Of a stretch of 36,928 bases of DNA, positions 11,325-36,822 are shown piece by piece. Source of the DNA: Candidatus Parcubacteria bacterium (GTDB taxonomy: Bacteria; Patescibacteriota; Minisyncoccia; 2-02-FULL-40-12; GWA2-44-9); assembly GCA_019662005.1 (NCBI GenBank), contig JAIFWG010000003.1:1-36928 (forward strand), in the 5' to 3' direction. A model generated the notes under the pieces. That model was given only the letters and a program-made list of their open reading frames with translations. It was not told where the DNA came from and made no database searches. Every line of letters starts with the position of its first letter. Within the stretch, counting starts at the first letter, position 1. Made by a program: the position numbers and the translations under genes.

Positions 11325-11792
11325 ATGGGCCAGACAATTACAAGGTTGGCGGACAGAAAATTAGAGGGCAAAGCTGTTTTTAATAACCGTTTTGTTGTTG
11401 AGATTTGCGAAAAGGTCCATGTCCATTATAGGAATCTACGAATCATTCTTTCTCTTAAAGATTGGATTAGCGTCGCGCAAGGAATGGCGGACGCCTTGAA
11501 ACGTTGGGAAAAACTTGGAAGCCCCGATCCTGGAGATAGACACATTGAATTATGTCGCAAAGAGGTAGCCTGTGACCCTATTGGTTCTGACGATATTGCT
11601 ATTAATCTTAATCGCAATTTGTACCTTTTAAATGAAGGAAAGATTTTTGCTGAGGGCGCAGAACTTAGCGATCAAACTTACATTCACTTAAAAGTTAGAG
11701 ATCAGCGCCTAGAACTGTCCCTCAGCGAATTCAATCAACTCGCGGATGCAATTATTGAAGCGAAGGATAAATTGTGCGTACCGCAGTCCTAG
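11325..11792 (+). CDS. hypothetical protein
   Basis: Track ORF that starts right after the upstream stop. Confidence 0.6.
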   Translation: MGQTITRLADRKLEGKAVFNNRFVVEICEKVHVHYRNLRIILSLKDWISVAQGMADALKRWEKLGSPDPGDRHIELCRKEVACDPIGSDDIAINLNRNLYLLNEGKIFAEGAELSDQTYIHLKVRDQRLELSLSEFNQLADAIIEAKDKLCVPQS

Positions 11793-12379
11793 TTCCGATT
11801 TATAAAAGATTGGAATATGCGAGGCTTTGTATTGAGGCTATTAAAAAATCAAAAGATTATGAATCTGCTGAATTTTACTTTTTGGATGGTTCCTCAGGTC
11901 TTCGGAACACCATCATTGATTTCTTTGAAGAGGTTCGCGGCAAATATGAATATTTGGCAAAGATGGATTCCGATTGCCTCGTCCCTGATAACTGGTTGAA
12001 AGATTTGACGCATATTCTTGATACGACCGATTATGACATTATTTCTCCCAATGTCTTTCCATCTAATGCAGCCTTTCTTTATGGGCGAGAAGGCGCGATC
12101 GTTCGTCCCTCCGAATCAGTGGGGGGCCTTTGGTGCATGAGAGCGAGCCTCATAAAAGATATGAATTTTGAGCGTTATTCTCCAAATGGAATTTCCGGGG
12201 CTTTTAATCTTTTAACTCAGATCATTAAAGAGAATGAGGCGAAGTGTGGTTGGATTCCATCCGTCACCATCCAAGATATCGGACACTGGAGCGGCGCTCA
12301 TCCTCTTCATATTAAGAGCAAAGAACATGAAGAATACTCAGCGGAAGTTAGACGCGATGTCTCCTGGAGTGCGGCATGA
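11774..12379 (+). CDS. glycosyltransferase family 2-like (GT-A)
   Basis: TAVLVPIYKRLEYARLCIEAI is a GT2-type N-terminus, and AKMDSDCLV is DxD-like. GTG start. Confidence 0.6.
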   Translation: MRTAVLVPIYKRLEYARLCIEAIKKSKDYESAEFYFLDGSSGLRNTIIDFFEEVRGKYEYLAKMDSDCLVPDNWLKDLTHILDTTDYDIISPNVFPSNAAFLYGREGAIVRPSESVGGLWCMRASLIKDMNFERYSPNGISGAFNLLTQIIKENEAKCGWIPSVTIQDIGHWSGAHPLHIKSKEHEEYSAEVRRDVSWSAA

Positions 12380-12918
12380 TTGTACGCGTCGATGATGTGT
12401 CTCCAAATACAAACATGGCAGACCTCAATAAATCAGCCGAATTTATGCACGAAGTTTTGGGTGCAGAGATTTGGTATTGCGTCAATCTTTTTTCAAAACT
12501 TTCTATTTATGGAAGCGTTTATCCCGATCTTCCGATGCGAAACCGCGATCTTAAATATTTTATGGATGTAGACAGAATCATGCGCGATTTTGCATTTCCA
12601 GAATATGTGAAGAAGGTATCTCACGGCTTAATTCATTCTGATCATGGAAAAATGTCTGATGGGGCGCAGGAACTCTCTATTGTTACGTCCTGTAGATTTC
12701 TCGGTGCAGATACTTTTGTTACGCCTTTCACGTCATGGAATGAGGCGACAGAACGAATTTGTGAAAAAAACCGGATTACGCTTATTAACGGACAAGGTTG
12801 GAAATCTCTCGAATCTGAGCCATTCTCTATTGACCATGACAAGTGGTTTTTTCATCCGTGGCGAATGAACTCCTCGCAAATAAGGGTCGCGATCAATGCC
12901 TGCAAAATCAATGCATAG
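12376..12918 (+). CDS. putative polysaccharide deacetylase-like protein (NodB/DUF2334-like)
   Basis: The RVDDVSP N-terminal motif and SHGLIHSDH (HxxxH-type) resemble deacetylase metal-binding motifs. ATGA-coupled to the upstream GT. Confidence 0.35.
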   Translation: MIVRVDDVSPNTNMADLNKSAEFMHEVLGAEIWYCVNLFSKLSIYGSVYPDLPMRNRDLKYFMDVDRIMRDFAFPEYVKKVSHGLIHSDHGKMSDGAQELSIVTSCRFLGADTFVTPFTSWNEATERICEKNRITLINGQGWKSLESEPFSIDHDKWFFHPWRMNSSQIRVAINACKINA

Positions 12919-13441
12919 TTACGCTGAAACGCTCTATGCGATTCTGGATGAATTTAAACCAAGGGTTTGTTTTGAGTGGGGGCCTGGAACATCCACTCAG
13001 ATCATGGCTTTACATCCAAGTGTCCAGCGTCTCGATTCTGTCGAGAATGAGCAGATTTTCTATGATTTGATTGAACGGCTTCATTATGACAATGTGAATT
13101 TTCATTATTTTCGTGAAATGGATGAATACGTCGAGGCCCTTAAAGGCAATTATGATTTTGTGTTTATTGATGGGCGTGATCGTTCAAGATGTCTAGATGT
13201 TGCAAAAAAACATTCTCCTATCGTTATGTTGCATGACGCGGCTCGTTCAGACTATAGGCAAGCTATTCATGAATATCAATTCAAAGTTTGGACAGATTTC
13301 GGACAAACGGTGTCTCTTACAAATAATATTCAGGTTTATTCGAGGCTCAAATCTGCTCTCAATACTCTTGAATGTGATGAGCCGAAAGAAGAGAAAATTC
13401 GCATCATTCCACAAGCTGAATTTAAAGGGATGGCGGTATGA
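12896..13441 (+). CDS. class I SAM-dependent methyltransferase-like
   Basis: CFEWGPGTSTQIM resembles motif I (E.G.G.S), and YDFVFIDGRDR resembles the post-motif of O-methyltransferase-type folds. The start could instead be ATG 12911. Confidence 0.5.
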   Translation: MPAKSMHSYAETLYAILDEFKPRVCFEWGPGTSTQIMALHPSVQRLDSVENEQIFYDLIERLHYDNVNFHYFREMDEYVEALKGNYDFVFIDGRDRSRCLDVAKKHSPIVMLHDAARSDYRQAIHEYQFKVWTDFGQTVSLTNNIQVYSRLKSALNTLECDEPKEEKIRIIPQAEFKGMAV

Positions 13442-13983
13442 AACTTGGCTGTCACCAACCGAATTTCGTTCCCTGGCTTTCTTATTTCCACAAGATTCAG
13501 AAAAGCGATGTTTTTGTTGTCATGATTCACTGCCAATTTGAAAAGAATAATTTTCAAAATCGTTTTAATCTTGACGAGAAGTGGATCACCAAACCCGTTA
13601 CGGGTGGAATGACAACCATTAAGGATAAATTCTATACAGATGGAAACAAGCTTATTGATGTGAATATGCCACTCATTATTGGTTTTTGTAAGATGTTAAG
13701 TATTAACACCTCCAAGATTCATTATGACTTTGAAACTAAAAATAAAGGGACTGAGAGGATTATTGAGATATGTAAAAGATTCCAGTGCGATGAATATCTT
13801 ACAAATCCTGACTCAATGAATAAATATCTGGATGAAAAACTGATGAATGACAATGCGATTGAAGTTGTGGGCTGTGAACTTCCAAAACAATATCGAGTTC
13901 CACTTTTTACTGCCCTTGAAACATGGGGAGTGCAGGGCTGCATTAATATCATCCAGAAGGATTGGTCAAAATGCAAAGCGTAA
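13438..13983 (+). CDS. WbqC-like family protein
   Basis: The N-terminus MKLGCHQPNFVPWLSYFHKIQKSDVFVVMIHCQFEKNNFQNRF follows the WbqC pattern (M.QP.f.PyiGYF..i...D.fv.lD.vqf.k....NR). ATGA-coupled. Confidence 0.65.
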   Translation: MKLGCHQPNFVPWLSYFHKIQKSDVFVVMIHCQFEKNNFQNRFNLDEKWITKPVTGGMTTIKDKFYTDGNKLIDVNMPLIIGFCKMLSINTSKIHYDFETKNKGTERIIEICKRFQCDEYLTNPDSMNKYLDEKLMNDNAIEVVGCELPKQYRVPLFTALETWGVQGCINIIQKDWSKCKA

Positions 13984-14426
13984 TGACTATCCCAATGCCT
14001 AATAGGGCTGATTGTGGGGAGAGATATCAATCAGTAATGGCTGATTATGGGGTATTTTTAAATCATAGTTTGATTGATATCGGATGTTCAAATGGATATT
14101 TCATGGCTCGCTTTGTAACTGACGGCGGCGGCAAAGCCGTTGGCGTGGAACCTGACGAAAAATTTAATCATGAGCTTATTGTTAGGAGCATTAAAGACGT
14201 CGAAGGAAATTTTGATATATGTTTTTATCTGGATTTGCATTATCACAATGGGATCAATTATTTCCCGTGGATCAAAGAGCGTGTTTCAACATTGTTTGTT
14301 GCTCCATCAGGCGTTGGAAACAATGACCGGCTAGAAGAAGATTTAACGAAAGAATTTGGAAATCATGAATTTATCAGCAGATCAAATTACGCTAACAGAA
14401 ACATTTACAAAGTGAGGGTTAAATGA
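13983..14426 (+). CDS. SAM-dependent methyltransferase-like
   Basis: LIDIGCSNGYF fits the motif I glycine-rich loop. TAATG overlap with the WbqC-like stop (the track ORF begins at TTG 13962). Confidence 0.5.
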   Translation: MTIPMPNRADCGERYQSVMADYGVFLNHSLIDIGCSNGYFMARFVTDGGGKAVGVEPDEKFNHELIVRSIKDVEGNFDICFYLDLHYHNGINYFPWIKERVSTLFVAPSGVGNNDRLEEDLTKEFGNHEFISRSNYANRNIYKVRVK

Positions 14427-14857
14427 CACCGGGTGATGTTAGATCAATTTATGCTTCAGGAACGGCTTATACATTAACGAACACAGCAACGGCTTTGGAT
14501 TTCGGAACCACTGACCCATCGGTGGTTCTTAACGCTCCTGGAACTTGGCTCATGTTCGGACGCGTAACGGTTCAAAATACAGGGGCAACTTTTGCGGCAA
14601 ATAGAGCCTACACTTTTAAGTTGAGGCGCACGAATAACACAGCTGCTGATGTGACAGGCGCAACGACAACTCAAAGTACAGATATTGTCACGACTGAAAC
14701 AATTACTTACACAGTAACGATTCCTCCGGCTCTTTATACAACAACGGCTGACTCCAATAATGATGCGATTACGATATTTGGGTCAGTCGCAACGGTACCA
14801 TCTGCCGGGACTTTTGACGTAACTGAAGCCTCAATCATAGCGCTCAAAATTTGCTAA
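14423..14857 (+). CDS. Thr/Ala-rich beta-type small protein, function unknown
   Basis: Track ORF, ATGA-coupled. Composition is rich in T, A and N (e.g. TGATTTQSTDIVTTETITYTVTIPPALYTTTAD). Confidence 0.6.
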   Translation: MTPGDVRSIYASGTAYTLTNTATALDFGTTDPSVVLNAPGTWLMFGRVTVQNTGATFAANRAYTFKLRRTNNTAADVTGATTTQSTDIVTTETITYTVTIPPALYTTTADSNNDAITIFGSVATVPSAGTFDVTEASIIALKIC

Positions 14858-15858
14858 TGGATACGCTGAGACAGTTTTTCTCTTTTATGAACGATGTGAG
14901 TTTTCCATACGTCGTTTTGCGTAATTGGGAAAGACTGCCTTATGACGTTACGCTTGGGGAACACAGCGATCTTGATCTATTGGTTTACGATTTTAATCAC
15001 TGGAAAGAAATATTCCCGCAGGCAAAACCAGAGTTTGCTTATCCGCGTGTTCGCATGAAAGTTCCGATTGATGATTCTTATGTCTATGTGGATGTGAGAC
15101 ATATTGGGGATGATTATTATCCGGCTGATTTTGAGAAGGCTATCCTCGAAAAAAGAGAATGGAGTCAGCGGGGATTTTATACTCCAGACCCTCTTCATCA
15201 CAGGATTGCTCTTGCTTATCACATTGTTCATCACAAGGCGATGATCTCAGATAATTACAGAAAATATATCGGAGATGCGAAGATTCCTGAATTGCTTGAG
15301 GCTCTGAGAAATTCTAATGTTGGGTGGATTGAACCCAAAGACAAATCCGTTGGGGCCTTTAATGGATATTGGAAAGGGGCAACATCAATCGTCAGTAGAG
15401 AGAACGGAAAAATTCTAAAAAGACAAGTTAGTTATCTGGATTATTCGCTTGTCCGCAACGAGTATGAAATCCTTTCAAGGTCAAGTTCTATCCATTTCCC
15501 GGAAGTCTATTCTTGTGATGTCGAAAAGAGAGAAATCGAGATTCAGGATTGTGGAGAACCTTTGCTCAATAACCTTCCCGATAACTGGCTTCAGCAGCTA
15601 CGGAATATTTTAAATGATTTAGATACTTTTGGAATTATTCACAGAGACATAAAGCTTGATAATTTAATGGTGAAATACGATGTGATTAAGCTGATTGATT
15701 TCGGATGGGCCAAGTTCAAATCTGAGGAGGACGAGAAACCGCCGCCGTCCTGTCTTGGATTTCCAAACAAACCGTCGTGGGGTTTCGACGACAATTATTC
15801 TATGAACCGAGTTATTAAACAAATCGAGTTTGAATTGGAAGAGAAGGTTTTTGCATGA
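14857..15858 (+). CDS. nucleotidyltransferase-like N-domain fused to a Hanks-type (eukaryotic-like) protein-kinase-fold domain
   Basis: The N-part HSDLDLLVYD is NTase-like. The C-part has HRDIKLDN (15640-15663) and DFG (15697-15705), plus GKILKRQ and NEYEIL upstream. TAATG overlap at the start. Confidence 0.65.
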   Translation: MDTLRQFFSFMNDVSFPYVVLRNWERLPYDVTLGEHSDLDLLVYDFNHWKEIFPQAKPEFAYPRVRMKVPIDDSYVYVDVRHIGDDYYPADFEKAILEKREWSQRGFYTPDPLHHRIALAYHIVHHKAMISDNYRKYIGDAKIPELLEALRNSNVGWIEPKDKSVGAFNGYWKGATSIVSRENGKILKRQVSYLDYSLVRNEYEILSRSSSIHFPEVYSCDVEKREIEIQDCGEPLLNNLPDNWLQQLRNILNDLDTFGIIHRDIKLDNLMVKYDVIKLIDFGWAKFKSEEDEKPPPSCLGFPNKPSWGFDDNYSMNRVIKQIEFELEEKVFA

Positions 15859-16994
15859 AGATTCTTGGCATAGAACGCGATGATTCAGCTTGCAACTTTT
15901 ATAGAATTCTCATGCCTCTTGATAATGTCCTGAAACAGAATCTGGCTGATGTTGCAATCATTCACCAGAGAGATGTCGCCATGGATCGATCCATCAAACT
16001 TGCTCTTGAAGCTGATGTCATTGTGTTCCAACGGCCCGCAAACGAAGAATGGCTTCAGTTTATTAAGACTTGCCGGAAGTACGGAAAACACATTGTGGCC
16101 GATTATGATGACGATCCTTTCAATACTTCACCACTTAATCCCTTTTATCAATATATCGGGACAGAACCCGTGGAATATACATGGGCGGATGGAACGAAAG
16201 AAATGCTTTGGTCAGAAGATATGGTCAGTGGAGACGGTAATAAAATATTCAACATTGAGCGAAACATTGCTTTTCGGGATATGTTTAGATTGAATTTCAA
16301 GAAGGCTGATATGGTGACTTGTACGACTTCAATCTTACAAAACGAATTCTTGAAAATCACTCCAAACGTTTCAGTGCTTCCGAACGTTATTGATCCGACT
16401 TTTTGGCCTACGCTTCCGGAGTTTCCAAAAAGAGAAGTTAGGATTGGTTGGCAAGGTGGTTGGTCGCATTACGAAGATTTATATGAAATTGTTCCAGTGA
16501 TTAAAAATGTCCTTGAAAAACATGACAACGTGAAATTCGTTTATTTTGGAGATCAAAGATTCCGACATCTTTTCAAAGGCTGCGATCAAAACAAGATTGA
16601 ATGGCAGGACTGGGTGCATCATGAAACGTACCCTTACAAGATGACGCTTCTTAATCTTGATATTGGCATTTGTCCTCTTGCCAATAATTCTTTCAATTGG
16701 ACGAAATCCGCAATCAAGTGGATGGAATATTCGATGCTTGGATGCGCGACCGTAGCGGCGAATATTGAACCGTACGCCCCTGCGATTAAGAGCGGAGAAA
16801 CCGGATTTCTTGTTTCTGACAATTCTGAATGGGAAATGGCTCTTGACGCACTCATTGAAAATGGATGGCAACGCCGCCTCATGGCAAAACGGGCTTTCGC
16901 AGATGTCATGGAAAATCACAACATTCAGACAAAAGCAAAGTTATGGGTCGAAGCTTACGACGCAATGCTTCGCCCTAAAGAGGTAACTGTATGA
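15855..16994 (+). CDS. GT-B fold glycosyltransferase (GT1/GT4-like)
   Basis: The C-terminal MEYSMLGCATVAANIEPYAPAIKSGETGFLV resembles the E..g....EAma.G.PVva......e.i..g..G.lv donor-binding motif. ATGA-coupled at both ends. Confidence 0.6.
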   Translation: MKILGIERDDSACNFYRILMPLDNVLKQNLADVAIIHQRDVAMDRSIKLALEADVIVFQRPANEEWLQFIKTCRKYGKHIVADYDDDPFNTSPLNPFYQYIGTEPVEYTWADGTKEMLWSEDMVSGDGNKIFNIERNIAFRDMFRLNFKKADMVTCTTSILQNEFLKITPNVSVLPNVIDPTFWPTLPEFPKREVRIGWQGGWSHYEDLYEIVPVIKNVLEKHDNVKFVYFGDQRFRHLFKGCDQNKIEWQDWVHHETYPYKMTLLNLDIGICPLANNSFNWTKSAIKWMEYSMLGCATVAANIEPYAPAIKSGETGFLVSDNSEWEMALDALIENGWQRRLMAKRAFADVMENHNIQTKAKLWVEAYDAMLRPKEVTV

Positions 16995-26354: not shown

Positions 26355-26367
26355 GATTTTAAAAACA

Positions 26368-27096
26368 ATGACTCAGCTTTATGATTCTTTCGCAAAGAAT
26401 ATGGAGCTGAATCCCACAATTAATGTAGCCCAGCCAGAAATTAACATTCCAGAAATTAAAGTTCCGGATATTTATGTTCCCGAAATAATAATTCCGACCA
26501 TTAATGTACCAACTCCCCAAGTCACCGTCAACCCAGAAATCAATATTGACTTAAATAAAGTCATAGATGCTCTTGAAAATCTAAAATACCTATCAAACCT
26601 ACCAAATAAGCCACTCTCGGTTCGTATGTCTGATGGGAATAAGTTTGTGAAGGTTATCCAACAACTTCAGAAAGCAACTGACAATCTCGGCGTAGTTTAC
26701 GCTGGCCAAAGCGGAATCACTTCCGACGAACTTACTATTATCTCCGGAAGAGACGCGACTGATTTTATATGGAATGGGACAGCAAAATTAACTCCTAAAT
26801 TCGCCACAATTGCAGCGAGTTCTTCTGGAAACAATACTATCGTTTCAGCCGTAAGCACTAAAAAAATCAGAGTTATTCAGATGGATTTAATGGCCGATGG
26901 GGATGTTAATGTAAAGTTTCAAAGCGGAGCAGGTGGAACAGATATTACGGGACTTTCTTACCTGACTCTTAACACGGGTCTTGTGAGAGGCTATTCTCCT
27001 ATCGGATGGTTTGAAACTGCGGCCAGCAATCTTCTTAATTTAAATTTAAGTGACGCGGTCGCGGTAGGGGGTTCGCTTACCTACGTAGAGGTTTGA
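26368..27096 (+). CDS. structural-type protein with N-terminal PxIxV pentapeptide repeats
   Basis: Track ORF (TTG 26338, or ATG 26368). It contains PEINI PEIKV PDIYV PEIII PTINV PTPQV, followed by a beta-rich C-domain. Confidence 0.5.
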   Translation: MTQLYDSFAKNMELNPTINVAQPEINIPEIKVPDIYVPEIIIPTINVPTPQVTVNPEINIDLNKVIDALENLKYLSNLPNKPLSVRMSDGNKFVKVIQQLQKATDNLGVVYAGQSGITSDELTIISGRDATDFIWNGTAKLTPKFATIAASSSGNNTIVSAVSTKKIRVIQMDLMADGDVNVKFQSGAGGTDITGLSYLTLNTGLVRGYSPIGWFETAASNLLNLNLSDAVAVGGSLTYVEV

Positions 27097-28541
27097 TGTT
27101 AAGCGTAATCATTCCTTCCCGAAATGAAATATATCTAGAAAAAACTATCCGAAATATCCTTGAGAACGCCCAAGGAGATATTGAAGTCATCGCGGAACTG
27201 GATGGGTACGTTCCCGACCCTCAGATTATCATTGATGATCCTCGCGTAAAGTTTGTTCATCATCCCACCTCTATCGGGCAACGCGCCTGTATTAATCACG
27301 GGGTTTCGATTGCTTCTGGAAAATTCATCATGAAACTTGATGCTCATTGTGCGGTAGCTCTTAGATTTGATGTGGAGCTTGCAAAGAACTGTGAAGAGTC
27401 ATGGACGGTCGTTCCCCGAATGTACAACCTCGATATTCATACCTGGAAACCAAAACTTCACAAGCTCACCGATTATATGTATTTCACAAGTCCTAATGAT
27501 CCAGACAAACCATTTCGCGCAGCCTACTACGAAGGCCGAGAATACCGAAGACAACACAAAAACCCCGAAATAATTGATGACACCATGTGTTGTATGGGGC
27601 CGGGCTGGTTCATGCATAAAAAAAGGTTTTTAGAGCAGGGGGGTTGTGATGAGTTCCATGAAGGTGGCTGGGGTCAGCAAGGGATTGAAGTTTCGCTTAA
27701 AGCATGGCTTTCCGGCGGCGCTCTTAAAGTAAATAAAAATACTTGGTTCGCTCATTGGTTTCGAGGCGGTGGTGGGCCTGGGTTTCCTTATCACCTTTCA
27801 GGTAATCAGGTTGAGAGAGTCCGAGATTATAGCAAGGATCTTTGGCTGAATGACAAATGGCCGCTGGCAACTCGAAAATTGTCCTGGGTCATTGAGAAAT
27901 TCAGACCGCCTACCTGGGATGAATATGTCGAACCTAATGAAAACGAGAAAAAGAATTTATTCGTCAAATTTTACAGGCACATGATCAAACCTGGAAAGAA
28001 TGTTATTCGCTGGAGAGGTCATCGAGTTCTAAAACTGCCATCTGACCTTGCCTTATATCAACAAGCTATCTTTGAAAAAAAACCTGATTTTATTGTTGAG
28101 ACAGGAACTAAATGGGGAGGTTCTGCGATTTTCTTGGCGGATATGTGTGAGTTGAATGGGCATGGTCAGGTTATTACCGTTGATATTGCACCGCTTCACA
28201 AACCAGAGCATCCAAGGATTACTTACATCACAGGAAATTCAATAGATAAAGCAATCGTTGAACAGATTAAAGGAATCGTTGGAGATAAATCGGTCATGGT
28301 CATATTAGATTCTGACCATTCATTCCATCATGTGATGTGGGAACTTCATCGCTATAACAAGCTTGTGACGCTTGGACAGTATCTTGTCGTTGAAGATTGC
28401 CACAATAAATACGGAGAGCGTCATCATCCGATGGACGCAAGAGACTGGTTTTTAAAAAGAACCGGAAGATTCAAGTTAGAAGATTTCGCGAGTAAATATT
28501 TAGTGGGTCTTTCAATGGATGGGTGGTTGCTCAGAAAATGA
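27096..28541 (+). CDS. bifunctional GT27-like (ppGalNAc-transferase-type) glycosyltransferase / CmcI-type methyltransferase
   Basis: N-half motifs are SVIIPSRNE, KLDAHCAV (27333-27356), GGWGQQGIEVSLKAWLSGG (27663-27719) and TWFAHWFR (27741-27764). C-half motifs are KPDFIVETGTKWGGSAIFLADM and ILDSDHSFHHVMWELHRYNKLV...YLVVEDC. Confidence 0.65.
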   Translation: MLSVIIPSRNEIYLEKTIRNILENAQGDIEVIAELDGYVPDPQIIIDDPRVKFVHHPTSIGQRACINHGVSIASGKFIMKLDAHCAVALRFDVELAKNCEESWTVVPRMYNLDIHTWKPKLHKLTDYMYFTSPNDPDKPFRAAYYEGREYRRQHKNPEIIDDTMCCMGPGWFMHKKRFLEQGGCDEFHEGGWGQQGIEVSLKAWLSGGALKVNKNTWFAHWFRGGGGPGFPYHLSGNQVERVRDYSKDLWLNDKWPLATRKLSWVIEKFRPPTWDEYVEPNENEKKNLFVKFYRHMIKPGKNVIRWRGHRVLKLPSDLALYQQAIFEKKPDFIVETGTKWGGSAIFLADMCELNGHGQVITVDIAPLHKPEHPRITYITGNSIDKAIVEQIKGIVGDKSVMVILDSDHSFHHVMWELHRYNKLVTLGQYLVVEDCHNKYGERHHPMDARDWFLKRTGRFKLEDFASKYLVGLSMDGWLLRK

Positions 28542-29308
28542 AAGTCTCCATAATTATTTCAGTATTAGACAGCCACGAAGCTTTACGACGCCAGCTTCTT
28601 TACATGGAAAAAATGGGAATTCCAGATGATACCGAAATTGTCATCGTGGATGATGGAAGCAAAATCCCTCTCGAATATCACGGTAATCTTCCCGTCCGAA
28701 TTCTTCGTCTTGAATGGCCAGAACGAAAATGGACAGCTTCAATCGCGCGTAACAGGGGAGTTGAAATTGCGAATGGTGAGTATCTTTTAATGTTCGATCT
28801 TGATCATTTCATAAACAAAGAACTCCTTGATATGGTCAGGACATTCGGCGGGTATAAAGTCCAATTCATTAGGTCAATCGCTGTGATATTAGAAGATGGA
28901 AGTTTCTGTCAAGATCCTGAAGTGCTTTTCAAATGGGGATATCCCAAAAGCAGATATATGGTCAGAGGGTTTGGGATTACTCCCCATCCCAATATGTTTG
29001 CGATGCGTAAAGACATATTTTTAAAACTTGGCGGTTATGACGAATATAGAGTCTTGAATCGTCAATATCCCCAAGGCGAAGACAGCTATTTCAAAAAGGT
29101 TTGGCAATCGAAAGTAGATGAAGGCATTTATCATGTCCACACCGAACGCCCGACGATTTACACATTCCCGACTGGAAAAATGTGTGGGGATGTAGATTTC
29201 AATCCCTTTAATCTTTTCCACAATTCAAGCCGTGCCACTGATCGGAACAAATTCTACAAAAAACAAATCGAGAAATATGGACATAACCGGGATATACATT
29301 TCTCTTAA
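28538..29308 (+). CDS. glycosyltransferase family 2
   Basis: KVSIIISVLDSHEAL...EIVIVDDGS, with FDLDH as the DxD motif. The ATG at 28538 forms an ATGA overlap with the upstream stop. Confidence 0.65.
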   Translation: MKVSIIISVLDSHEALRRQLLYMEKMGIPDDTEIVIVDDGSKIPLEYHGNLPVRILRLEWPERKWTASIARNRGVEIANGEYLLMFDLDHFINKELLDMVRTFGGYKVQFIRSIAVILEDGSFCQDPEVLFKWGYPKSRYMVRGFGITPHPNMFAMRKDIFLKLGGYDEYRVLNRQYPQGEDSYFKKVWQSKVDEGIYHVHTERPTIYTFPTGKMCGDVDFNPFNLFHNSSRATDRNKFYKKQIEKYGHNRDIHFS

Positions 29309-29981
29309 TAAGCTACCTCAATATTGGGTTGATTATCACCTTGAAGTTCTTAAAGATGCTGCCCCGGGCATGCCCATTATTTCCATCACAAAAAAACCGA
29401 TGGATTTGGGAATGAATCTTTTGGATACCGATGAGCCTGGGTACACCAATATTTACAGGCAGTTATTAAGAGCGGCGAAATTAGCCACGACAAAATACGT
29501 TGCAATGATTGAGGATGACTGCCTTTATTCAAAAAGCCATTTTTTTAAATTCAGGCCACAAGATGATGAGTTTGCCTATAACCGAAACAGATGGTCTCTC
29601 TTTAGTTGGGGGGAGCCTATTTACTCGCTCAGACAAAGACTGAGTAACTGCTCTCTCATCGCTCCGCGTGATCTTTTAATAGAAGCTCTTCAAGAACGCT
29701 TTGATAAATACAACGGGCATCCTCCGGACAGTGAAATGGGTGAATGCGGAAGAGCCAGGATTGAAGACAGGCTGAAAGTTACTCGCCGTAAACAGGTCGA
29801 TTTTTTATCAAGAGTTTCAATTGTCCATATTAATCATCCTCTTGGAACTGAGGATAGACAACAACAACAGTGGAAATCTCATGCAGAGATCAGGGCTTAT
29901 GACATTCCTCATTGGGGGAAAGCTGCGGACATAGTCAATTTTTTTAATAATGGAATTAACCAAATGGAGGCTTTGAAATGA
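29277..29981 (+). CDS. putative glycosyltransferase-like protein
   Basis: VAMIEDDCLY is a DxD-like motif in a GT-A-like context. The start was chosen at ATG 29277. Functional support is weak. Confidence 0.3.
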   Translation: MDITGIYISLNKLPQYWVDYHLEVLKDAAPGMPIISITKKPMDLGMNLLDTDEPGYTNIYRQLLRAAKLATTKYVAMIEDDCLYSKSHFFKFRPQDDEFAYNRNRWSLFSWGEPIYSLRQRLSNCSLIAPRDLLIEALQERFDKYNGHPPDSEMGECGRARIEDRLKVTRRKQVDFLSRVSIVHINHPLGTEDRQQQQWKSHAEIRAYDIPHWGKAADIVNFFNNGINQMEALK

Positions 29982-30397
29982 GCGTAACTCGATGGGGGCC
30001 GGATACCTGCAAATGTCTATTTGATTTTGAGCCTGATCCCAATGATGGAACTAATCAAATTCTGATAGAAGTTCTGAATATTTGTTCAGAACATAAAGGG
30101 TTGTCTGGAAAGGATCTTCACCAGACAGTTTTAAAGCAAGAGAACCAGCATAAAAACAAAATACATTCAAAATTATTGGAACTCGATGCCATGGCTGAAG
30201 ACATAACTCAAGACGATGGCTCCGTGATAAGACGATTCAAGAAAGGGGTTGGATTTGATTTTAATTTCACAGGTAAAGACGATTCAAGGACTTTAAATAT
30301 AACGACTAAAGGGCATGTTTTATCAGGGGCTCAAAAGGCAGCATTGACTGATTTTTCTCTTCAAGAAACAGGGAAATCAATTTTAGAGATTAAATAA
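29978..30397 (+). CDS. CxC...CxxH protein, paralog A (139 aa)
   Basis: WGPDTCKCLFDF...ICSEHK. About 30% identical by eye to the next ORF, which has the same length. Confidence 0.6.
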   Translation: MSVTRWGPDTCKCLFDFEPDPNDGTNQILIEVLNICSEHKGLSGKDLHQTVLKQENQHKNKIHSKLLELDAMAEDITQDDGSVIRRFKKGVGFDFNFTGKDDSRTLNITTKGHVLSGAQKAALTDFSLQETGKSILEIK

Positions 30398-30413
30398 CTG
30401 GAAAGGGAATCTA

Positions 30414-30833
30414 ATGACTATACAAACGAATGCTTGGCACCCGGATACCTGCGGATGTGCTTTTGAATATACATGGGATGATCAGGATTTAGATCGCGTG
30501 CGGACTTTGAATAAAGTCATTCATGTGTGCGATCTCCATAAAATAATTTCTCTCACACCTTCAAGCCATTACTCGACAGTATCAGATGAAAACGTGAGAA
30601 AGAACAAACTTTATGGGAGATTTTTGGGAGTTTCTGATCTCACGCAAACGGATGCAAGCGGAAATGTTAATTTTAAAAACGGGGTAGATGTCTCATTCTC
30701 TTGGGACGGGACTGATTATGCCCGGATATTAAGCGCTTCTATCACTGGTTATAACCTGTCTGGGGCCAATAAAAATTCCGTACAAGATTGGTGTGACTCG
30801 ACCTTCGGGTTTGGGAAAGTAGCTATTAACTAA
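30414..30833 (+). CDS. CxC...CxxH protein, paralog B (139 aa)
   Basis: WHPDTCGCAFEY...VCDLHK. It shares EN..KNK, TQ.D.SG...FK.GV and LSGA.K with paralog A. Confidence 0.6.
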   Translation: MTIQTNAWHPDTCGCAFEYTWDDQDLDRVRTLNKVIHVCDLHKIISLTPSSHYSTVSDENVRKNKLYGRFLGVSDLTQTDASGNVNFKNGVDVSFSWDGTDYARILSASITGYNLSGANKNSVQDWCDSTFGFGKVAIN

Positions 30834-30835
30834 AA

Positions 30836-31015
30836 ATGGGCAATACGTTAATCCAAACTCAGACAGACAGCGCTCTTTCCACCAACCAAGTCTCAGACGG
30901 AACTACTTTTTACAATGCTTTAGGTGGTGCGATTAGAGGCAGCACAACCGAAACTTTCCGTCAATTTATAAACCGGACGGGAAGCGAAAGCTTCCATTTT
31001 TGTTTCCGCCAATGA
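30836..31015 (+). CDS. N-terminal fragment (59 aa) of the S/P/T-tailed late protein, separated by a frameshift
   Basis: MGNTLIQTQTDSALSTNQVSDGTTFYNALGGAIRGSTTETFRQFINRTG... matches the start of the domain repeated twice in 31176..32795. The reading frame of 31176..32795 is already open from 30972. Confidence 0.55.
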   Translation: MGNTLIQTQTDSALSTNQVSDGTTFYNALGGAIRGSTTETFRQFINRTGSESFHFCFRQ

Positions 31016-31175
31016 TGTCAGTAGTGCAAGCACTCTTAAATTCAGGAAAAATACGGCAGACGGCTCAACGGCTGCGAGCATTACTGGCAACACCACAGGC
31101 TTTTTTCAAGACGCGACCAACACAGATTCTGTCGTTGCCGGTGATCTTGTTGATTGGTCTATTACTGCGCCCGCT

Positions 31176-32795
31176 GTGGCCGGAAATCATTCAATCGAAT
31201 ATAAAAATATTTATGCCACATTTGCTGCTGGTACAAATTCATTCCAACGGCTCATAGGTTACACTGACGGAACAACCGGTACGCCGCCCCAAATAGTAAG
31301 CGCCGCGACTCGTTATTATAACGCTGGCGGAAATGTAAGTGCCCTTTCCGTGACGGAAGCTCCTGCCCAATTTAAATACAGAACAGCCGGGACGATTAAA
31401 AGTCTTTCCCAGATGGTCAGCGCAAACTCAGCCAGTTTCGCTACGACCGTAACTTTAAACATAAATGGTACGGGTGGCACTAATACGATTTCTGTAACGG
31501 CATCCACCACCGGTCTTTTTGAAGACACAACTCATTCCGATACGATTGCGGCAGGAGATCTCATTTCAATCGTTGGCGTCGGGGGCGTCGGAACTGGAAG
31601 TTCTACTATTCTTGGGGCTGCGCTTGAATTCGGGACTACGAATAGTAAGTTCCAAATGTATAGCTGGACTTCTCCAACAGCCCTTACTGCCGGTTCAACA
31701 TTCTACTATCCTTTATCCGGCGGTCTTATTGTCAATACGACAAACACAGAAAACGAATCCATTCAGCTTCGCGCTTCCTTCGTGATGACGGCTACAAATC
31801 TAGAATGTTATCTCACGGCCAATGCTTCTACAGGCGCCGGAACATTTGATTTTAGAAATGGTGCCGCAAGCACCGCTCTCACAATTTCTGTCACAGCTCT
31901 TACATCGGGTCTTTTTGAGGACACAACTCATTCTGCTTCAATCGCAATAGGGGACAAAATAAATTATAGGTATGTCGTAGGTTCCGGCGGAACTGGAACT
32001 TTAGATATGTTTGGCTGTATGCTGGCAGCTTCTGGCTCATCGCCTTCCAGCAGTCCGAGCTCAAGTCCTAGCAGTTCTCCAAGCCCGTCATCTTCGCCTT
32101 CGAGCAGTCCAAGTTCTTCACCGAGTCCATCTACAAGTCCATCAAGCAGTCCAAGTAGTTCACCCAGTTCGAGTCGTAGTTCGAGTCCTAGCTCATCACC
32201 CAGTCCATCGACTTCACCAAGTTCTTCGCCGAGCACATCACCAAGTAGTTCACCGAGCCCAAGTACGAGTCCATCGGCATCGCCGAGCACGAGTCCTTCA
32301 ACATCTCGGAGTGCATCACCTAGCACCAGTCCATCGAGCAGTCCAAGTCCATCGACAAGTCCGAGTTCAAGTGCGTCGACAAGTCCAAGCAGCAGTCCGT
32401 CACCATCGACTTCACCGTCTAGTTCTCCGTCAACTTCGCCTAGTAGCTCACCAAGCCCTAGTACGAGTCCGTCAAGTAGCCCAAGTAGCTCAAAATCAAC
32501 TTCGCCAAGTACGAGCGTTTCTTCGTCGCCCAGCAGTTCGCCATCAACTTCACCAAGTTCATCGCCGAGTCCGTCAACGAGTCCTAGTTCATCGCCTAGT
32601 TCGAGTCGTAGCGCAAGTCCATCAAGCAGTCCAAGCACGTCACCGTCAAGTTCTCCGAGCCCTTCGGCTTCACCATCAAGCAGTCCGAGTAGTTCACCAA
32701 GCAGTTCACCATCAGCAAGCCCTTCAGCATCACCGAGTTCATCTCCTTCTGCTGGAGCGTTTTTACCGAGACTAACATTGTTAGGAGCGGGATAA
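31176..32795 (+). CDS. late protein with tandem beta-type domains and a C-terminal Ser/Pro/Thr tract of about 240 residues
   Basis: Track ORF (GTG start, no RBS). Domain repeats are marked by YYNAGG/FYYPLSGG and TTGLFEDTTHSDTIAAGD/TSGLFEDTTHSASIAIGD. The real N-terminus is probably 30836, reached via a frameshift. Confidence 0.7.
   Translation: MAGNHSIEYKNIYATFAAGTNSFQRLIGYTDGTTGTPPQIVSAATRYYNAGGNVSALSVTEAPAQFKYRTAGTIKSLSQMVSANSASFATTVTLNINGTGGTNTISVTASTTGLFEDTTHSDTIAAGDLISIVGVGGVGTGSSTILGAALEFGTTNSKFQMYSWTSPTALTAGSTFYYPLSGGLIVNTTNTENESIQLRASFVMTATNLECYLTANASTGAGTFDFRNGAASTALTISVTALTSGLFEDTTHSASIAIGDKINYRYVVGSGGTGTLDMFGCMLAASGSSPSSSPSSSPSSSPSPSSSPSSSPSSSPSPSTSPSSSPSSSPSSSRSSSPSSSPSPSTSPSSSPSTSPSSSPSPSTSPSASPSTSPSTSRSASPSTSPSSSPSPSTSPSSSASTSPSSSPSPSTSPSSSPSTSPSSSPSPSTSPSSSPSSSKSTSPSTSVSSSPSSSPSTSPSSSPSPSTSPSSSPSSSRSASPSSSPSTSPSSSPSPSASPSSSPSSSPSSSPSASPSASPSSSPSAGAFLPRLTLLGAG
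32031..32750 (+). repeat. coding low-complexity tract, (S-P-S-S/T)n tetrapeptide periodicity
   Basis: About 240 codons that are almost exclusively Ser, Pro and Thr, with rare R/K/A/V. Ser is encoded with all six codons. Confidence 0.9.
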
Positions 32796-32798
32796 ATT

Positions 32799-33101
32799 AT
32801 GCCATTCACTGATGATCAATTTAAGGAATTTATCAAAGCAATGGATACCAGAGAAATGCTTATTCGCATTGATGAAAACACTAAGAATTTTCATCAATCA
32901 ATTGGTCGACGATTGGATGATCATATCAATGAAGACTTAAAAGAACTGGGTGTTCATACTCGCGACATTGAAAAATCTCATATCCGCATTGATGTCTTAG
33001 AAAAAGAACAAACAAAGCTCAGGGGAATCGTAATAGGTGTTGGAACGCTCGCAACCATAATTCTATCCATGCTCCAACTGTGGATAGCGTTCGTTAAATA
33101 A
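32799..33101 (+). CDS. lysis-associated membrane protein (XhlA-like topology: coiled coil plus C-terminal TM)
   Basis: The C-terminal IVIGVGTLATIILSMLQLWIAFV follows a charged helical N-region. It lies directly upstream of a holin-like ORF. Confidence 0.4.
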   Translation: MPFTDDQFKEFIKAMDTREMLIRIDENTKNFHQSIGRRLDDHINEDLKELGVHTRDIEKSHIRIDVLEKEQTKLRGIVIGVGTLATIILSMLQLWIAFVK

Positions 33102-33115
33102 TAGGAGGATTAAAA

Positions 33116-36483: not shown

Positions 36484-36515
36484 CTCATCCCTTTCCTTCC
36501 CGCTCAGTCGTTGTT

Positions 36516-36683: not shown

Positions 36684-36822
36684 CCTCTTCCATCTCCTTT
36701 TTTATTAAAAGCATCCGCTTTTGAGGGGCGGTGCTGGCGGCGGGCCATTTCAACCCGCACGCTGTTTTAGCATACAACAAGGATTTCTTTCCCTTTCCTT
36801 CCCGCTCAGTCGTTAAGAGGTT

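What the first reader, a model, noticed from the sequence alone, without database searches (positions are those of the whole stretch)
27096..32795. Candidate phage-encoded mucin-type O-glycosylation system: GT27-like/CmcI fusion enzyme, two more GT-A ORFs and a Ser/Pro/Thr-tailed late protein
Seen in sequence: the N-half of ORF 27096..28541 carries SVIIPSRNE, KLDAHCAV, GGWGQQGIEVSLKAWLSGG and TWFAHWFR. In pattern these line up with the DxH metal site, the Gal/GalNAc-T motif (WGGENxExSxRxWxCGG) and the following GHVFR of polypeptide GalNAc-transferases (CAZy GT27), the enzymes that start mucin-type O-glycosylation in eukaryotes. The C-half (KPDFIVETGTKWGGSAIFLADM, ILDSDHSFHHVMWEL, YLVVEDC) looks like the CmcI/cephalosporin-hydroxylase-like methyltransferase fold, which includes sugar O-methyltransferases. 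The ORF is ATGA-coupled to a GT2 (28538..29308) and to a further DxD-like ORF. Two paralogous Cys/His proteins follow, and then a late protein whose last ~240 residues are almost pure S/P/T. Inference: enzyme and substrate are encoded together in the late operon, so this looks like a self-contained glycosylation system decorating a fibre or virion protein. Glycosyltransferases are known in some phages, but I do not know of a described GT27-motif/CmcI fusion paired with such a tract.
Basis: partly seen in the sequence, partly recalled or inferred. Interest (0 to 1): 0.88.

Follow-up and report, generated by a model that had tools for sequence, protein, structure and literature searches.

The report
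Phage serine-tract O-glycosylation gene cassette
An uncultivated phage carries an enzyme closest to the animal enzymes that start mucin glycosylation, next to a late protein with a 245-residue Ser/Pro tail. The same enzyme sits beside serine-repeat proteins in dozens of unrelated phage contigs, which suggests a widespread, undescribed way for phages to build sugar-coated stalks.

Summary
ORF 27096-28541 fuses a GT-A glycosyltransferase to a CmcI-type methyltransferase (Pfam PF04989, E 7e-41). By family profile and by AlphaFold/Foldseek, the closest solved structures to the glycosyltransferase are all polypeptide GalNAc-transferases (GT27): E 5e-17, and all top 50 Foldseek hits. The DxH, the distal His and part of the Gal/GalNAc-T motif are conserved. 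ORF 28538-29308 is a GT2. ORF 29277-29981 has no Pfam hit but models as a new DxD GT-A.

The late protein 30836-32795 has a 1-nt frameshift near 30979-30983. Its 231-residue tract (32058-32750) is about 95% S/P/T.

New comparative evidence supports an enzyme-substrate link:
- The GT27-like domain is widespread in uncultivated phages: 268 clusters at E<=1e-30.
- It is paired with the ORF3-type GT-A in 83 of 101 loci and fused to it in about 38 ORFs.
- It lies beside (Ser-x)n tract proteins in 63 of 85 loci, against 2 of 120 random viral loci (p = 4e-31).
- None of 120 homologues of the tail-bearing protein has a tract, and all five of their phage contexts examined lack the enzymes.

The donor sugar, the acceptor and the glycan are unproven. 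I found no description of this system. I rate it a new variant of virus-encoded protein glycosylation.

The parts
27096..28541 (+). Fusion enzyme, 481 aa. The N-terminal GT27-like GT-A domain covers about aa 1-275 (nt 27096-27920). The C-terminal CmcI/rhamnosyl-O-methyltransferase-like domain covers about aa 304-480 (nt 28005-28535).
   Evidence: Pfam PF00535 E 9e-13 and PF04989 E 7e-41. Profile against PDB: GT27 enzymes at E 5e-17 to 5e-11 covering positions 2-248 of 270, and CmcI at 3e-14. The AF2 model has pLDDT 93, and all top 50 Foldseek PDB hits are ppGalNAc-Ts. D82, H84, H220, F222, R223, W192, G193 and E198 are invariant among 49 fusion-family homologues (A1). D82, H84 and H220 remain invariant across the broader 64-sequence set (A4). 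No TM segment.
28538..29308 (+). GT2-family glycosyltransferase, 256 aa, translationally coupled to the fusion ORF by an ATGA overlap. It is an accessory component, not part of the conserved core.
   Evidence: Pfam PF00535 E 7e-11 and PF10111 E 2e-7. PDB GT2 hits at E 6e-5. This subtype occurs in only 12 of the surveyed loci.
29277..29981 (+). ORF3, 234 aa. A previously unannotated GT-A glycosyltransferase family with an invariant E79-D80-D81 (DxD) motif. It is the core partner of the GT27-like domain.
   Evidence: No Pfam, NCBIfam, PHROG or PDB sequence hit. The AF2 model has pLDDT 95 and pTM 0.91. Foldseek hits are GT-A enzymes: SpsA 1e-6, WrtF, B4GALNT1 and alpha3GalT. Its HMM is found in 83 of 101 loci that hold the N-domain, and it is fused C-terminally to the N-domain in about 38 ORFs.
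29978..30397 (+). Cys/His protein 1, 139 aa, with a W-x-PDTC-x-C ... C-x-x-H motif. Function unknown. It belongs to the structural module of the tail-bearing protein, not to the GT cassette.
   Evidence: Paralogue of the next ORF (35% identity, E 2e-22). A homologue lies directly upstream of the three-repeat protein in L310-L312 (phmmer); in L313-L314 an ORF of similar size occupies that position. Absent from the other GT loci.
30414..30833 (+). Cys/His protein 2, 139 aa, paralogue of the previous ORF.
30836..32795 (+). Late three-repeat beta-rich protein, about 650 aa once frame-corrected, and the candidate acceptor. A 1-nt indel lies at 30979-30983. Three domains of about 130 aa run to about 32057.
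   Evidence: There are 185 homologues of 400-430 aa covering 97-100% of the N-terminal region, and they are continuous across the frameshift.
32058..32750 (+). Ser/Pro/Thr tract of about 231 aa, built from the unit S-x-S-P, and the proposed O-glycosylation target. It is an insertion relative to all 120 listed homologues.
   Evidence: Composition. The DNA is not a simple tandem repeat: TRF finds only four short weak arrays. 0 of 120 homologues carry such a tract.
32751..32792 (+). C-terminal peptide AGAFLPRLTLLGAG, retained after the tract.
   Evidence: The same kind of ending is seen in tract-less homologues (P0277 ...TAFLTLLGAGT, P0241 ...RRRMLMGVGL, P0284 ...SMTLLGVGI) and after the tract of an unrelated protein in L003 (...VFVPRLTLLGVG).
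11774..16994 (+). Second glycan-related gene cluster, lying between the major capsid protein gene and the adaptor gene. It may feed or extend the same pathway; this was not tested.
   Evidence: Pfam: GT2 at 11774-12379, WbqC-like at 13438-13983, methyltransferase at 13962-14426, protein-kinase-like at 14851-15858 and GT1/GT4-like at 15855-16994.

Best explanation
This is a phage-encoded, cytoplasmic protein O-glycosylation module.

Proposed steps:
1. The soluble GT27-like domain (DxH plus a distal His for the metal and nucleotide-sugar) transfers a first sugar onto serines of the (S-x-S-P)n tract in the late three-repeat protein.
2. The ORF3-type GT-A, and in this phage also the GT2, extend the glycan.
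3. The CmcI-like domain fused to the initiating enzyme O-methylates a sugar, possibly as a cap.

The product would be a stiff, protease-resistant, mucin-like or SRRP-like stalk of about 230 residues. It would hold the three globular N-terminal domains away from a short C-terminal peptide (PRLTLLGAG) that probably docks on the virion.

Shown: fold and family assignments, conserved catalytic residues, the gene-neighbourhood association, the domain fusions, and the tract as an insertion found only where the enzymes are present.

Inferred: that the tract serines are the acceptor, the order of action, the donor sugars, virion location, and what the stalk does.
For: (1) GT27 likeness. The family profile hits ppGalNAc-T1, T2, T3, T4, T7, T9, T10 and T12 at E 5e-17 to 5e-11 over the whole catalytic domain. 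GT2 structures align only to the first ~100 residues. All top 50 Foldseek hits are GT27. The DxH and the His of FAHWFR are invariant.
(2) Association with tracts. 63 of 85 loci encoding the domain hold a (Ser-x)n tract ORF, against 2 of 120 random IMG/VR loci (Fisher p = 3.7e-31). 99 of 102 tract ORFs are on the GT strand, and 69 lie downstream at a median of 1.6 kb. 13 of the 20 loci without a tract have less than 3 kb of downstream sequence. The association survives dereplication: 57 of 75 clusters at 90% identity and 32 of 37 at 70%.
(3) Mobility of the cassette. It travels between unrelated phage backbones (SU10-like podovirus, lambda-like siphovirus, 117-240 kb contigs), yet tracts still accompany it in L003, L004 and L006; none was found in L005.
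(4) Natural experiment. 0 of 120 homologues of the window's three-repeat protein have a tract. All 5 of their genomic contexts examined lack the GT27-like, CmcI and ORF3 domains.
(5) Fusions. ORF3 is fused to the GT27-like domain in about 38 ORFs and co-occurs with it in 83 of 101 loci.
(6) The three GT proteins have no TM segment. They sit in the late operon between tail-module genes and the lysis-like genes.
(7) From general knowledge of GT27: these enzymes prefer Ser/Thr flanked by Pro at -1, +1 and +3, which S-P-S-x provides.
Against: No biochemical or proteomic data exist. The first Glu of the WGGEN motif is Gln in this family, so activity and donor may differ from GT27. The lectin domain of GT27 is absent. 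In the reverse test, only 9 of 99 viral loci picked by an SPSASPSASPS-coding DNA pattern had the GT domain within the fetched stretch. Flanks were short and many of those loci were giant-virus contigs, but the result shows that tracts are not exclusive to this enzyme. Six GT loci with at least 3.9 kb of downstream sequence showed no tract. The acceptor gene carries a frameshift in this contig, which is either an assembly error or a pseudogene. A second GT cluster, including a GT4, is present and could instead provide the initiating enzyme.
Confidence: 0.65

Rival explanations
1. The glycosyltransferases and the methyltransferase remodel host envelope glycans (LPS, capsule, teichoic acid or S-layer glycan) for superinfection exclusion or receptor masking. 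They lie near Ser-rich proteins only because both kinds of gene collect in fibre or accessory modules.
For: Phage GT2 and GT4 genes are usually read this way; PHROGs files such genes under 'moron, auxiliary metabolic gene and host takeover'. Some relatives sit beside sugar-nucleotide and polysaccharide genes: Bac_transf, GT9, GT4 and an epimerase in L005 and L006. NCBIfam's best hit for the C-domain is a glycolipid rhamnosyl O-methyltransferase.
Against: The closest structures are polypeptide, not lipid or oligosaccharide, transferases. There are no GtrA/GtrC-type membrane partners and no TM segments. The tract association is specific, same-strand and preserved across unrelated backbones. Tract-less homologues of the same structural protein occur in phages without the enzymes. 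The genes are in the late structural operon, not a lysogeny or moron position.
Confidence: 0.12
2. The enzymes glycosylate other virion proteins, such as capsid or tail proteins as in mycobacteriophages. The Ser/Pro tract is an unmodified flexible linker that co-occurs for structural reasons.
For: In the only experimentally studied phage case, reported for cluster F1 mycobacteriophages as cited in PMC11256854, the major capsid proteins are glycosylated. The window has another GT cluster right after the capsid gene.
Against: No other long S/T/P-rich segment was found in the window. This reading does not explain why the tract appears as an insertion exactly where the enzymes are present, nor the 74% versus 2% association.
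Confidence: 0.1
3. The cassette makes or decorates a non-protein molecule, such as a free methylated oligosaccharide, a small molecule or DNA. The GT27 likeness reflects only shared GT-A ancestry.
For: NCBIfam gives weak hits to small-molecule GTs (mycofactocin MftF, arsenosugar GT), all far below cut-off. CmcI itself acts on a small molecule.
Against: Those hits cover only the generic N-terminal nucleotide-binding half. The full-domain matches are all GT27. There is no biosynthetic context for a small molecule. Known phage DNA glucosyltransferases belong to other folds (general knowledge).
Confidence: 0.05
4. The tract is not a translated feature but a low-complexity DNA or assembly artefact, and the late gene is a pseudogene.
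For: There is a 1-nt frameshift upstream in the same gene. Long ORFs are open in other frames and on the other strand through the tract. In at least one relative, L004, gene callers chose the antisense ORF.
Against: The frame encoding (S-x)n continues from a conserved domain into a conserved C-terminal peptide. The DNA is not a simple tandem repeat. The same protein-level pattern, with different codons and different x residues, recurs in about 100 ORFs on the GT strand.
Confidence: 0.03

Closest known systems
Eukaryotic polypeptide N-acetylgalactosaminyltransferases (ppGalNAc-Ts, CAZy GT27)
   Same: GT-A catalytic domain with DxH plus a distal His (FAHWFR against GHVFR), and the W-G...I-E-x-S...W-x-x-G-G segment of the Gal/GalNAc-T motif. 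A Trp-containing helix follows the His (DLWLNN against EVWMDE). These are the best sequence and structure matches among all PDB entries. The acceptors are long Ser/Thr/Pro-rich tracts.
   Different: There is no ricin-type lectin domain and no type-II membrane anchor or stem. Instead the domain is fused to a CmcI-type methyltransferase or to a new GT-A. WGGEN is WGQQG, so the first Glu is lost. The enzyme is soluble, so presumably cytoplasmic, and phage-borne. Only 17-21% identity. Donor sugar and stereochemistry are unknown. Ser is far more common than Thr in the tracts.
Serine-rich-repeat glycoproteins of Gram-positive bacteria (Fap1, GspB, SraP, PsrP) with GtfA/GtfB and accessory GTs
   Same: From general knowledge: (Ser-x)n dipeptide tracts of hundreds of residues, O-glycosylated in the cytoplasm by dedicated neighbouring GTs. 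They form a stalk that projects a binding domain. Here Ser fills 76% of alternate positions, the median tract is 220 aa, and the N-terminal parts are often lectin-like (Laminin_G_3 in 13 of 78).
   Different: The SRRP initiating enzyme is a GT4 (GT-B fold) complex, whereas here it is a GT27-like GT-A. There is no accessory Sec system. Pro fills about a quarter of the x positions. The carriers are phage proteins.
Virion glycosylation of mycobacteriophages (Che8 and relatives; Freeman et al. 2023, Cell Host Microbe, as cited in PMC11256854)
   Same: Phage-encoded glycosyltransferases modify the phage's own structural proteins.
   Different: tblastn of the fusion enzyme against 50,697 GenBank phage records found nothing at E<=1e-5, so the enzymes are unrelated at that level. 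The targets there are capsid proteins, not long (Ser-x)n tracts. I could not read the primary paper.
Chlorovirus PBCV-1 A064R (two rhamnosyltransferase domains plus a methyltransferase domain)
   Same: A virus-encoded multidomain protein joins glycosyltransferase domains to a sugar O-methyltransferase domain. It builds and methylates the glycan of a virion protein (PMC9614988).
   Different: It acts on N-linked glycans of the major capsid protein of a eukaryotic giant virus. The domain families differ, and there is no tract-type acceptor.
CmcI / rhamnosyl O-methyltransferase family (Pfam PF04989)
   Same: The C-domain matches almost the whole profile (7-205 of 206, E 7e-41). It also matches CmcI structures 2bm8 and 2br3 (E 3e-14). 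The glycine-rich SAM loop (ETGTKWGGS) and the acidic metal site (D405, E433, D434 invariant) are conserved.
   Different: It is fused to a glycosyltransferase. It scores far below NCBIfam's equivalog cut-off for the mycobacterial rhamnosyl O-methyltransferase (82 against 400 bits). The substrate is unknown.

Membership tests
CAZy GT27 (ppGalNAc-T) | GT-A catalytic domain whose closest relatives are GT27 over its full length | tested here: met
   Profile against PDB: GT27 at E 5e-17 to 5e-11 over positions 2-248 of 270, while GT2 structures align only to about the first 100. All top 50 Foldseek hits are GT27.
CAZy GT27 (ppGalNAc-T) | DxH motif plus a distal His as Mn2+ ligands (D209, H211 and H344 in mouse T1; PMC4202792) | tested here: met
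   D82, H84 and H220 are invariant in 49 and in 64 family members, and align to LDAHC and GHVFR.
CAZy GT27 (ppGalNAc-T) | Gal/GalNAc-T motif WGGENxExSxRxWxCGG | tested here: inconclusive
   The aligned segment is GGWGQQGIEVSLKAWLSGG. W, G, the second E, S, W and GG are kept, but E-N is replaced by Q-G. Pfam PF02709 did not hit.
CAZy GT27 (ppGalNAc-T) | C-terminal ricin-type lectin domain and N-terminal type-II membrane anchor | tested here: not met
   Pfam finds RMNT_CmcI instead of a ricin domain. No hydrophobic segment is present: KD19 maximum 1.18.
CAZy GT27 (ppGalNAc-T) | Retaining transfer of GalNAc from UDP-GalNAc to Ser/Thr of a polypeptide; assignment by CAZy/dbCAN models | not testable with these tools
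Pfam PF04989 RMNT_CmcI methyltransferases | Full-length match above the gathering score, with the SAM-binding loop and acidic metal site | tested here: met
   140.6 bits against a 23.2 cut-off, profile positions 7-205 of 206. CmcI structures match at E 3e-14. G337, D405, E433 and D434 are invariant.
GT2 (Pfam PF00535), for ORF 28538-29308 | Match above the gathering score | tested here: met
   42.7 bits against a 23.3 cut-off. PF10111 scores 31.6 against 27.3.
GT-A fold glycosyltransferases, for ORF3 29277-29981 | Rossmann-like GT-A fold with an acidic DxD motif after the central strand | tested here: met
   The AF2 model has pLDDT 95. Foldseek hits include SpsA, WrtF, B4GALNT1 and alpha3GalT at probability 1.0, E about 1e-6 and TM about 0.45-0.52. 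E79-D80-D81 is invariant and follows strand 74-79. No sequence-family membership was found.
Serine-rich-repeat glycoprotein systems (GtfA/GtfB type) | GT4 GtfA/GtfB initiating pair and an accessory Sec export locus | tested here: not met
   The window's only GT4-like ORF (15855-16994) did not hit the NCBIfam GtfA models. It has no homologue in the other GT27-like loci. No SecA2/SecY2 genes were seen.
Mycobacteriophage virion glycosylation genes | Homology of the enzymes to those of Che8-type phages | tested here: not met
   tblastn of the fusion enzyme against 50,697 phage records gave no match at E<=1e-5.

The most novel reading that the evidence does not exclude
The window is one example of a widespread, undescribed phage system. 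A GT27-like polypeptide O-glycosyltransferase, the closest non-eukaryotic relative of the enzymes that start mucin-type O-glycosylation, works with a new GT-A family, and in this phage's subgroup with a fused sugar O-methyltransferase. Together they turn genetically portable (Ser-x)n tracts into glycosylated stalks on fibre or decoration proteins of many uncultivated phage lineages. If so, phages build mucin-like or SRRP-like glycoproteins themselves. The family could also bear on the unexplained evolutionary origin of eukaryotic GT27.
Probability: 0.45. Interest if true: 0.85.

Novelty: new variant of a known kind. Interest (0 to 1): 0.78.

Why it matters
Self-glycosylation of phage particles has been shown experimentally only in a few mycobacteriophages. 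Elsewhere, phage glycosyltransferases are routinely read as DNA- or host-modifying.

Here the comparative signal links an enzyme family to a recognisable acceptor motif, with p about 1e-31. The family has 268 clusters at E<=1e-30 and 647 at E<=1e-10 among 1.84 billion representatives. It is absent from 50,697 deposited phage genomes and was found in only 5 contigs, all from metagenome-assembled genomes, in a scan of 185,579 species genomes.

If the link holds:
- It gives a sequence-level rule for predicting glycosylated phage proteins in metagenomes.
- It offers a compact, soluble, bacterial-cytoplasm-compatible toolkit for making mucin-like glycoproteins.
- It provides a testable non-eukaryotic relative of GT27.
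- Glycosylated stalks would affect phage adsorption, mucus or particle adherence, protease resistance and immune recognition.
- It warns annotators that gene callers can pick the antisense frame in these tracts.

Tried and rejected
- PHROGs gave nothing for the fusion enzyme, ORF3, the Cys/His proteins or the tail protein.
- tblastn of the fusion enzyme against GenBank phages found no match. The terminase has only 24-26% identical relatives there, so no cultivated relative is available.
- PDB sequence and profile searches with ORF3 found nothing. Only the predicted structure identified it.
- The reverse search, a DNA pattern coding SPSASPSASPS in IMG/VR, returned a mixed bag. It included giant-virus contigs and short flanks, and only 9 of 99 loci held the GT domain. 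I do not use it as evidence either way beyond showing non-exclusivity.
- The ORF2-type GT2 was tested as a core member by iterated HMM search and rejected: 12 loci only.
- The GT4 and the kinase-like ORF of the second cluster have no homologues in the other GT loci, so they are not part of the conserved system.
- GT60 (Pfam PF11397) and Glyco_transf_7C (PF02709) did not hit.
- The genome-contig scan found only 5 MAG contigs, so no host could be assigned. The NCBI label 'Candidatus Parcubacteria' comes from binning and is not evidence of host.
- Nine literature searches found no description of this system. The library lacks most subscription papers, and the key mycobacteriophage paper was not held.
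- No terminal repeat shows that the contig is a complete genome.

Full report
**Setting**

The window is a whole 36,928-bp contig that NCBI files under a 'Candidatus Parcubacteria' MAG (P0001). It is a tailed-phage genome of the SU10-like podovirus type:
- large terminase at 4219-5919
- SU10-type portal at 6188-8194
- SU10-type major capsid protein at 9884-10810
- SU10-type adaptor at 16991-17668

It has no close relative among 50,697 deposited phage genomes. The finding lies at the end of the late operon. Three small proteins with hydrophobic segments follow it (32799-33594), then an HNH endonuclease on the other strand.

**Checking the observation**

All quoted motifs are present at the stated places.

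*Fusion ORF 27096-28541.* Pfam splits it into Glycos_transf_2 (aa 3-140, E 9e-13) and RMNT_CmcI (aa 304-480, E 7e-41, nearly the whole profile).

*GT27 likeness.*
- A single-sequence search of PDB already puts a ppGalNAc-T first (6s22, E 1.8e-7). It aligns GGWGQQGIEVSLKAWLSGG to WGGENIEMSFRVWQCGG, and FAHWFR to GHVFR.
- A profile of 49 homologues improves this to E 4e-13.
- A broader profile of 64 N-domains reaches E 5e-17. GalNAc-T1, T2, T3, T4, T7, T9, T10 and T12 and the Toxoplasma enzyme are all aligned over positions 2-248 of 270. Ordinary GT2 structures align only over the first ~100 residues.
- The AlphaFold model (pLDDT 93) gives GT27 enzymes as all of the top 50 Foldseek hits in PDB (E 4e-16 downward).
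- D82 and H84 (the DxH) and H220 are invariant across both alignments (A1 and A4). F222, R223, W192, G193 and E198 are invariant in A1 only.
- The first Glu of the GT27 WGGEN motif is Gln in the fusion-family consensus.

*C-domain.* It keeps the CmcI SAM loop and acidic metal site.

*Neighbouring ORFs.*
- ORF 28538-29308 is a GT2, coupled by an ATGA overlap.
- ORF3 (29277-29981) has no hit in Pfam, NCBIfam, PHROGs or PDB by sequence. Its model (pLDDT 95, pTM 0.91) is a GT-A fold, with SpsA, WrtF, B4GALNT1 and alpha-1,3-GalT as matches. An invariant E-D-D follows the central strand.
- The two Cys/His proteins are paralogues.

*The late protein.* It begins at 30836 in one frame and continues in another after a 1-nt indel in the run GGGAA at 30979-30983. 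Homologues read straight through that point. Its last 245 residues are S 59%, P 23% and T 7%. The underlying DNA is not a simple tandem repeat.

**What the comparison with other sequences adds**

*Family size and distribution.*
- The fusion architecture alone has 1,171 hits at E<=1e-5 in the large protein collection.
- The N-domain alone has 268 clusters at E<=1e-30 and 647 at E<=1e-10 among 1.84 billion representatives.
- It is essentially absent from species-representative genomes. Only five MAG contigs were found, and four of them carry tract proteins.

*The cassette is mobile.* It occurs in unrelated backbones:
- an SU10-like podovirus (L003)
- a lambda-like siphovirus, right after a Collar-domain fibre gene (L004)
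- contigs of 117 and 240 kb (L006, L005)

*Association with serine tracts.* I scanned 85 loci encoding the domain, 80 of them from IMG/VR.
- 60 loci hold an ORF with a long S/T/P-rich tract, and 63 hold one with (Ser-x)n periodicity.
- 99 of 102 such ORFs lie on the GT strand. 69 lie downstream, at a median of 1.6 kb and often directly adjacent.
- 13 of the 20 loci without a tract have less than 3 kb of downstream sequence.
- As a control I fetched 120 random IMG/VR loci (1.07 Mb) with an arbitrary 14-mer. Three have an S/T/P tract, two a (Ser-x)n tract and none the GT domain. Fisher's exact p = 3.7e-31.
- After dereplicating the N-domains, the association holds in 57 of 75 clusters at 90% identity and 32 of 37 at 70%.

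*Nature of the tracts.*
- Ser occupies 76% of alternate positions.
- The x positions are Pro 25%, Ala 20%, Ser 14%, Ile/Val 16% and Glu 5%.
- The median length is 220 residues and the maximum 1,628.
- All three enzyme architectures show tracts at similar rates.

*Carrier proteins are diverse.* Of 78 N-terminal parts, 13 are Laminin_G_3 lectin-like. A few are beta-helix, tail-tube or head-completion domains, and most are unclassified. The tract therefore behaves as a portable module.

**Core of the system**

The ORF3-type GT-A occurs in 83 of 101 loci that have the GT27-like domain. In about 38 ORFs it is fused to the C-terminus of that domain. The CmcI fusion occurs in 29 ORFs, and ORF3 is then a separate neighbouring gene. 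The ORF2-type GT2 is found in only 12 loci. The conserved unit is therefore the GT27-like domain, the ORF3-type GT-A and a (Ser-x)n protein. The methyltransferase and further GTs are variable additions.

**A natural experiment in this phage**

The N-terminal 338 residues of the tail-bearing protein belong to a family of 185 proteins. They are 400-430 aa long, carry three internal repeats and have no Pfam domain.
- None of the 120 listed members has a (Ser-x)n tract.
- I fetched five of their genomic contexts, L310-L314. None has a hit to the N-domain, CmcI or ORF3 profiles, and none has a tract. A homologue of the Cys/His protein sits directly upstream in L310-L312 by phmmer; in L313-L314 an ORF of similar size occupies that position.
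- Several members end in a motif like ...LTLLGAG (P0277 TAFLTLLGAGT, P0241 RRRMLMGVGL, P0284 SMTLLGVGI).
- The window's protein ends ...SPSAGAFLPRLTLLGAG.

The tract is thus a ~231-residue insertion between the last globular domain and the family's own C-terminal peptide. It is present exactly in the phage that also acquired the enzyme cassette just upstream. An unrelated tract protein in L003 ends in the same peptide, VFVPRLTLLGVG.

**Most likely mechanism**

The three glycosyltransferase proteins have no membrane segment. They are co-transcribed with late structural genes.
1. I propose that the GT27-like domain starts O-glycosylation on tract serines in the cytoplasm.
2. The ORF3-type GT-A and the GT2 extend the glycan.
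3. The fused CmcI-like domain methylates a sugar.

The result would be a stiff, glycosylated stalk between the globular domains and a docking peptide.

The fold assignments, residue conservation, association statistics, fusions and the insertion are shown. The acceptor, donor sugars, order of steps, virion location and biological role are inferred.

From general knowledge, GT27 enzymes favour Ser/Thr with Pro at -1, +1 and +3, which fits S-P-S-x. Serine-rich-repeat adhesins of Gram-positive bacteria also use cytoplasmic glycosylation of (Ser-x)n tracts to build stalks.

**Rivals**

- *Host-glycan remodelling* is the usual reading of phage GTs. Polysaccharide genes lie near some relatives. But it does not explain the specific, same-strand tract association across backbones, nor the insertion result. 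The closest structures are also polypeptide transferases.
- *Glycosylation of other virion proteins, with an unmodified linker,* is possible, and the second GT cluster after the capsid gene keeps it open.
- *A non-protein product or an artefactual tract* is unlikely, for the reasons given under each rival.

**Comparison with what is known**

The N-domain works like, and is structurally nearest to, GT27. It fails the family's architectural features (lectin domain, membrane anchor) and only partly keeps the Gal/GalNAc-T motif. CAZy membership could not be tested. I therefore call it GT27-like, not GT27.
- Virus-encoded glycosylation of the virus's own structural proteins is known from cluster F1 mycobacteriophages (cited in PMC11256854; the primary paper was not held).
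- It is also known from chloroviruses, whose A064R joins two rhamnosyltransferase domains to a methyltransferase domain (PMC9614988).
- Neither uses this enzyme family or this kind of acceptor.
- Nine full-text searches found no description of a GT27-like phage enzyme, of the CmcI fusion in phages, or of serine-tract phage proteins paired with GTs. The library is incomplete, so this is absence of evidence only.

**Verdict**

I rate it a new variant of a known kind: virus-encoded protein glycosylation with a new enzyme pair and a recognisable acceptor motif. Interest is high because the system is widespread, unannotated and directly testable.

Noticed in passing
window 11774-16994: A second cluster of glycan-related genes lies between the major capsid protein gene and the adaptor gene. 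It holds a GT2-like ORF (11774-12379), a WbqC-like ORF (13438-13983), a methyltransferase (13962-14426), a protein-kinase/Bud32-like ORF (14851-15858) and a GT1/GT4-like ORF (15855-16994). Relative L003 has a comparable GT/MT block in the same position. About a quarter of this small genome is devoted to glycan enzymes.
   Followed up: partly
window 30979-30983: There is a 1-nt indel in a GGGAA run inside the tail-bearing late gene, and homologues read through it. It could be a homopolymer assembly error or a real pseudogenising mutation. Several overlapping ~180-aa ORFs at 12376-13983 hint that the contig may have other indels.
   Followed up: partly
window 36488-36621 and 36790-36928: A segment of about 135 nt is repeated directly 302-307 nt apart, as a 25-nt block and a 109-nt block, each 100% identical. 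The second copy runs to the very end of the contig. It may be an assembly artefact at a repeat or part of a terminal or origin structure. The two contig ends do not match each other.
   Followed up: partly
window 31964-32809 (-) and 32011-32775 (+): Long ORFs are open on the opposite strand and in another frame through the Ser/Pro tract (for example GDELGDAEGL...). They are by-products of the codon periodicity. In relative L004 the public gene call chose the antisense ORF, so these tract proteins are probably under-annotated in databases.
   Followed up: partly
window 32751-32792; L003 15052-15087: A short C-terminal peptide ((F/V)(L/V)PRLTLLG(A/V)G) follows the tract in two proteins with unrelated N-terminal parts. 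It also ends some tract-less homologues. Other tract proteins end in short repeated beta-strand-like motifs (for example RKPSVTF, GRKPDITF). These may be virion-docking signals.
   Followed up: partly
window 29978-30833; L310-L314 just upstream of position 10001: A small Cys/His protein (W-x-PDTC-x-C ... C-x-x-H, about 135-150 aa, no known domain) directly precedes the three-repeat protein in three unrelated phages (L310-L312, by phmmer), with a similar-sized ORF in that position in L313 and L314. It is duplicated in the window. It may be a Zn-binding assembly partner or chaperone.
   Followed up: partly
window 26338-27096: A 252-aa ORF directly upstream of the cassette overlaps the fusion ORF's start codon by 1 nt (TGATG). 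It has a run of PEI(N/K)(I/V)P-like proline-rich repeats followed by a beta-rich C-terminal part. It has no family hit apart from a weak PHROG of unknown function.
   Followed up: no
window 32799-33594 and 33845-34420 (-): Three small ORFs with strongly hydrophobic segments follow the late operon, one with a lipoprotein-like N-terminus (MKKILIGFIVFGMIGC). They look like a holin/spanin-type lysis cassette. An HNH endonuclease gene follows on the opposite strand.
   Followed up: no
L086-L184 (IMG/VR loci with an SPSASPSASPS-coding pattern): Many (Ser-x)n or SPSA-type tracts also occur on giant-virus (GVMAG) contigs and on phage contigs with no GT27-like gene in the fetched stretch. The tract type is therefore broader than this enzyme family and may have other modifying enzymes.
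   Followed up: no
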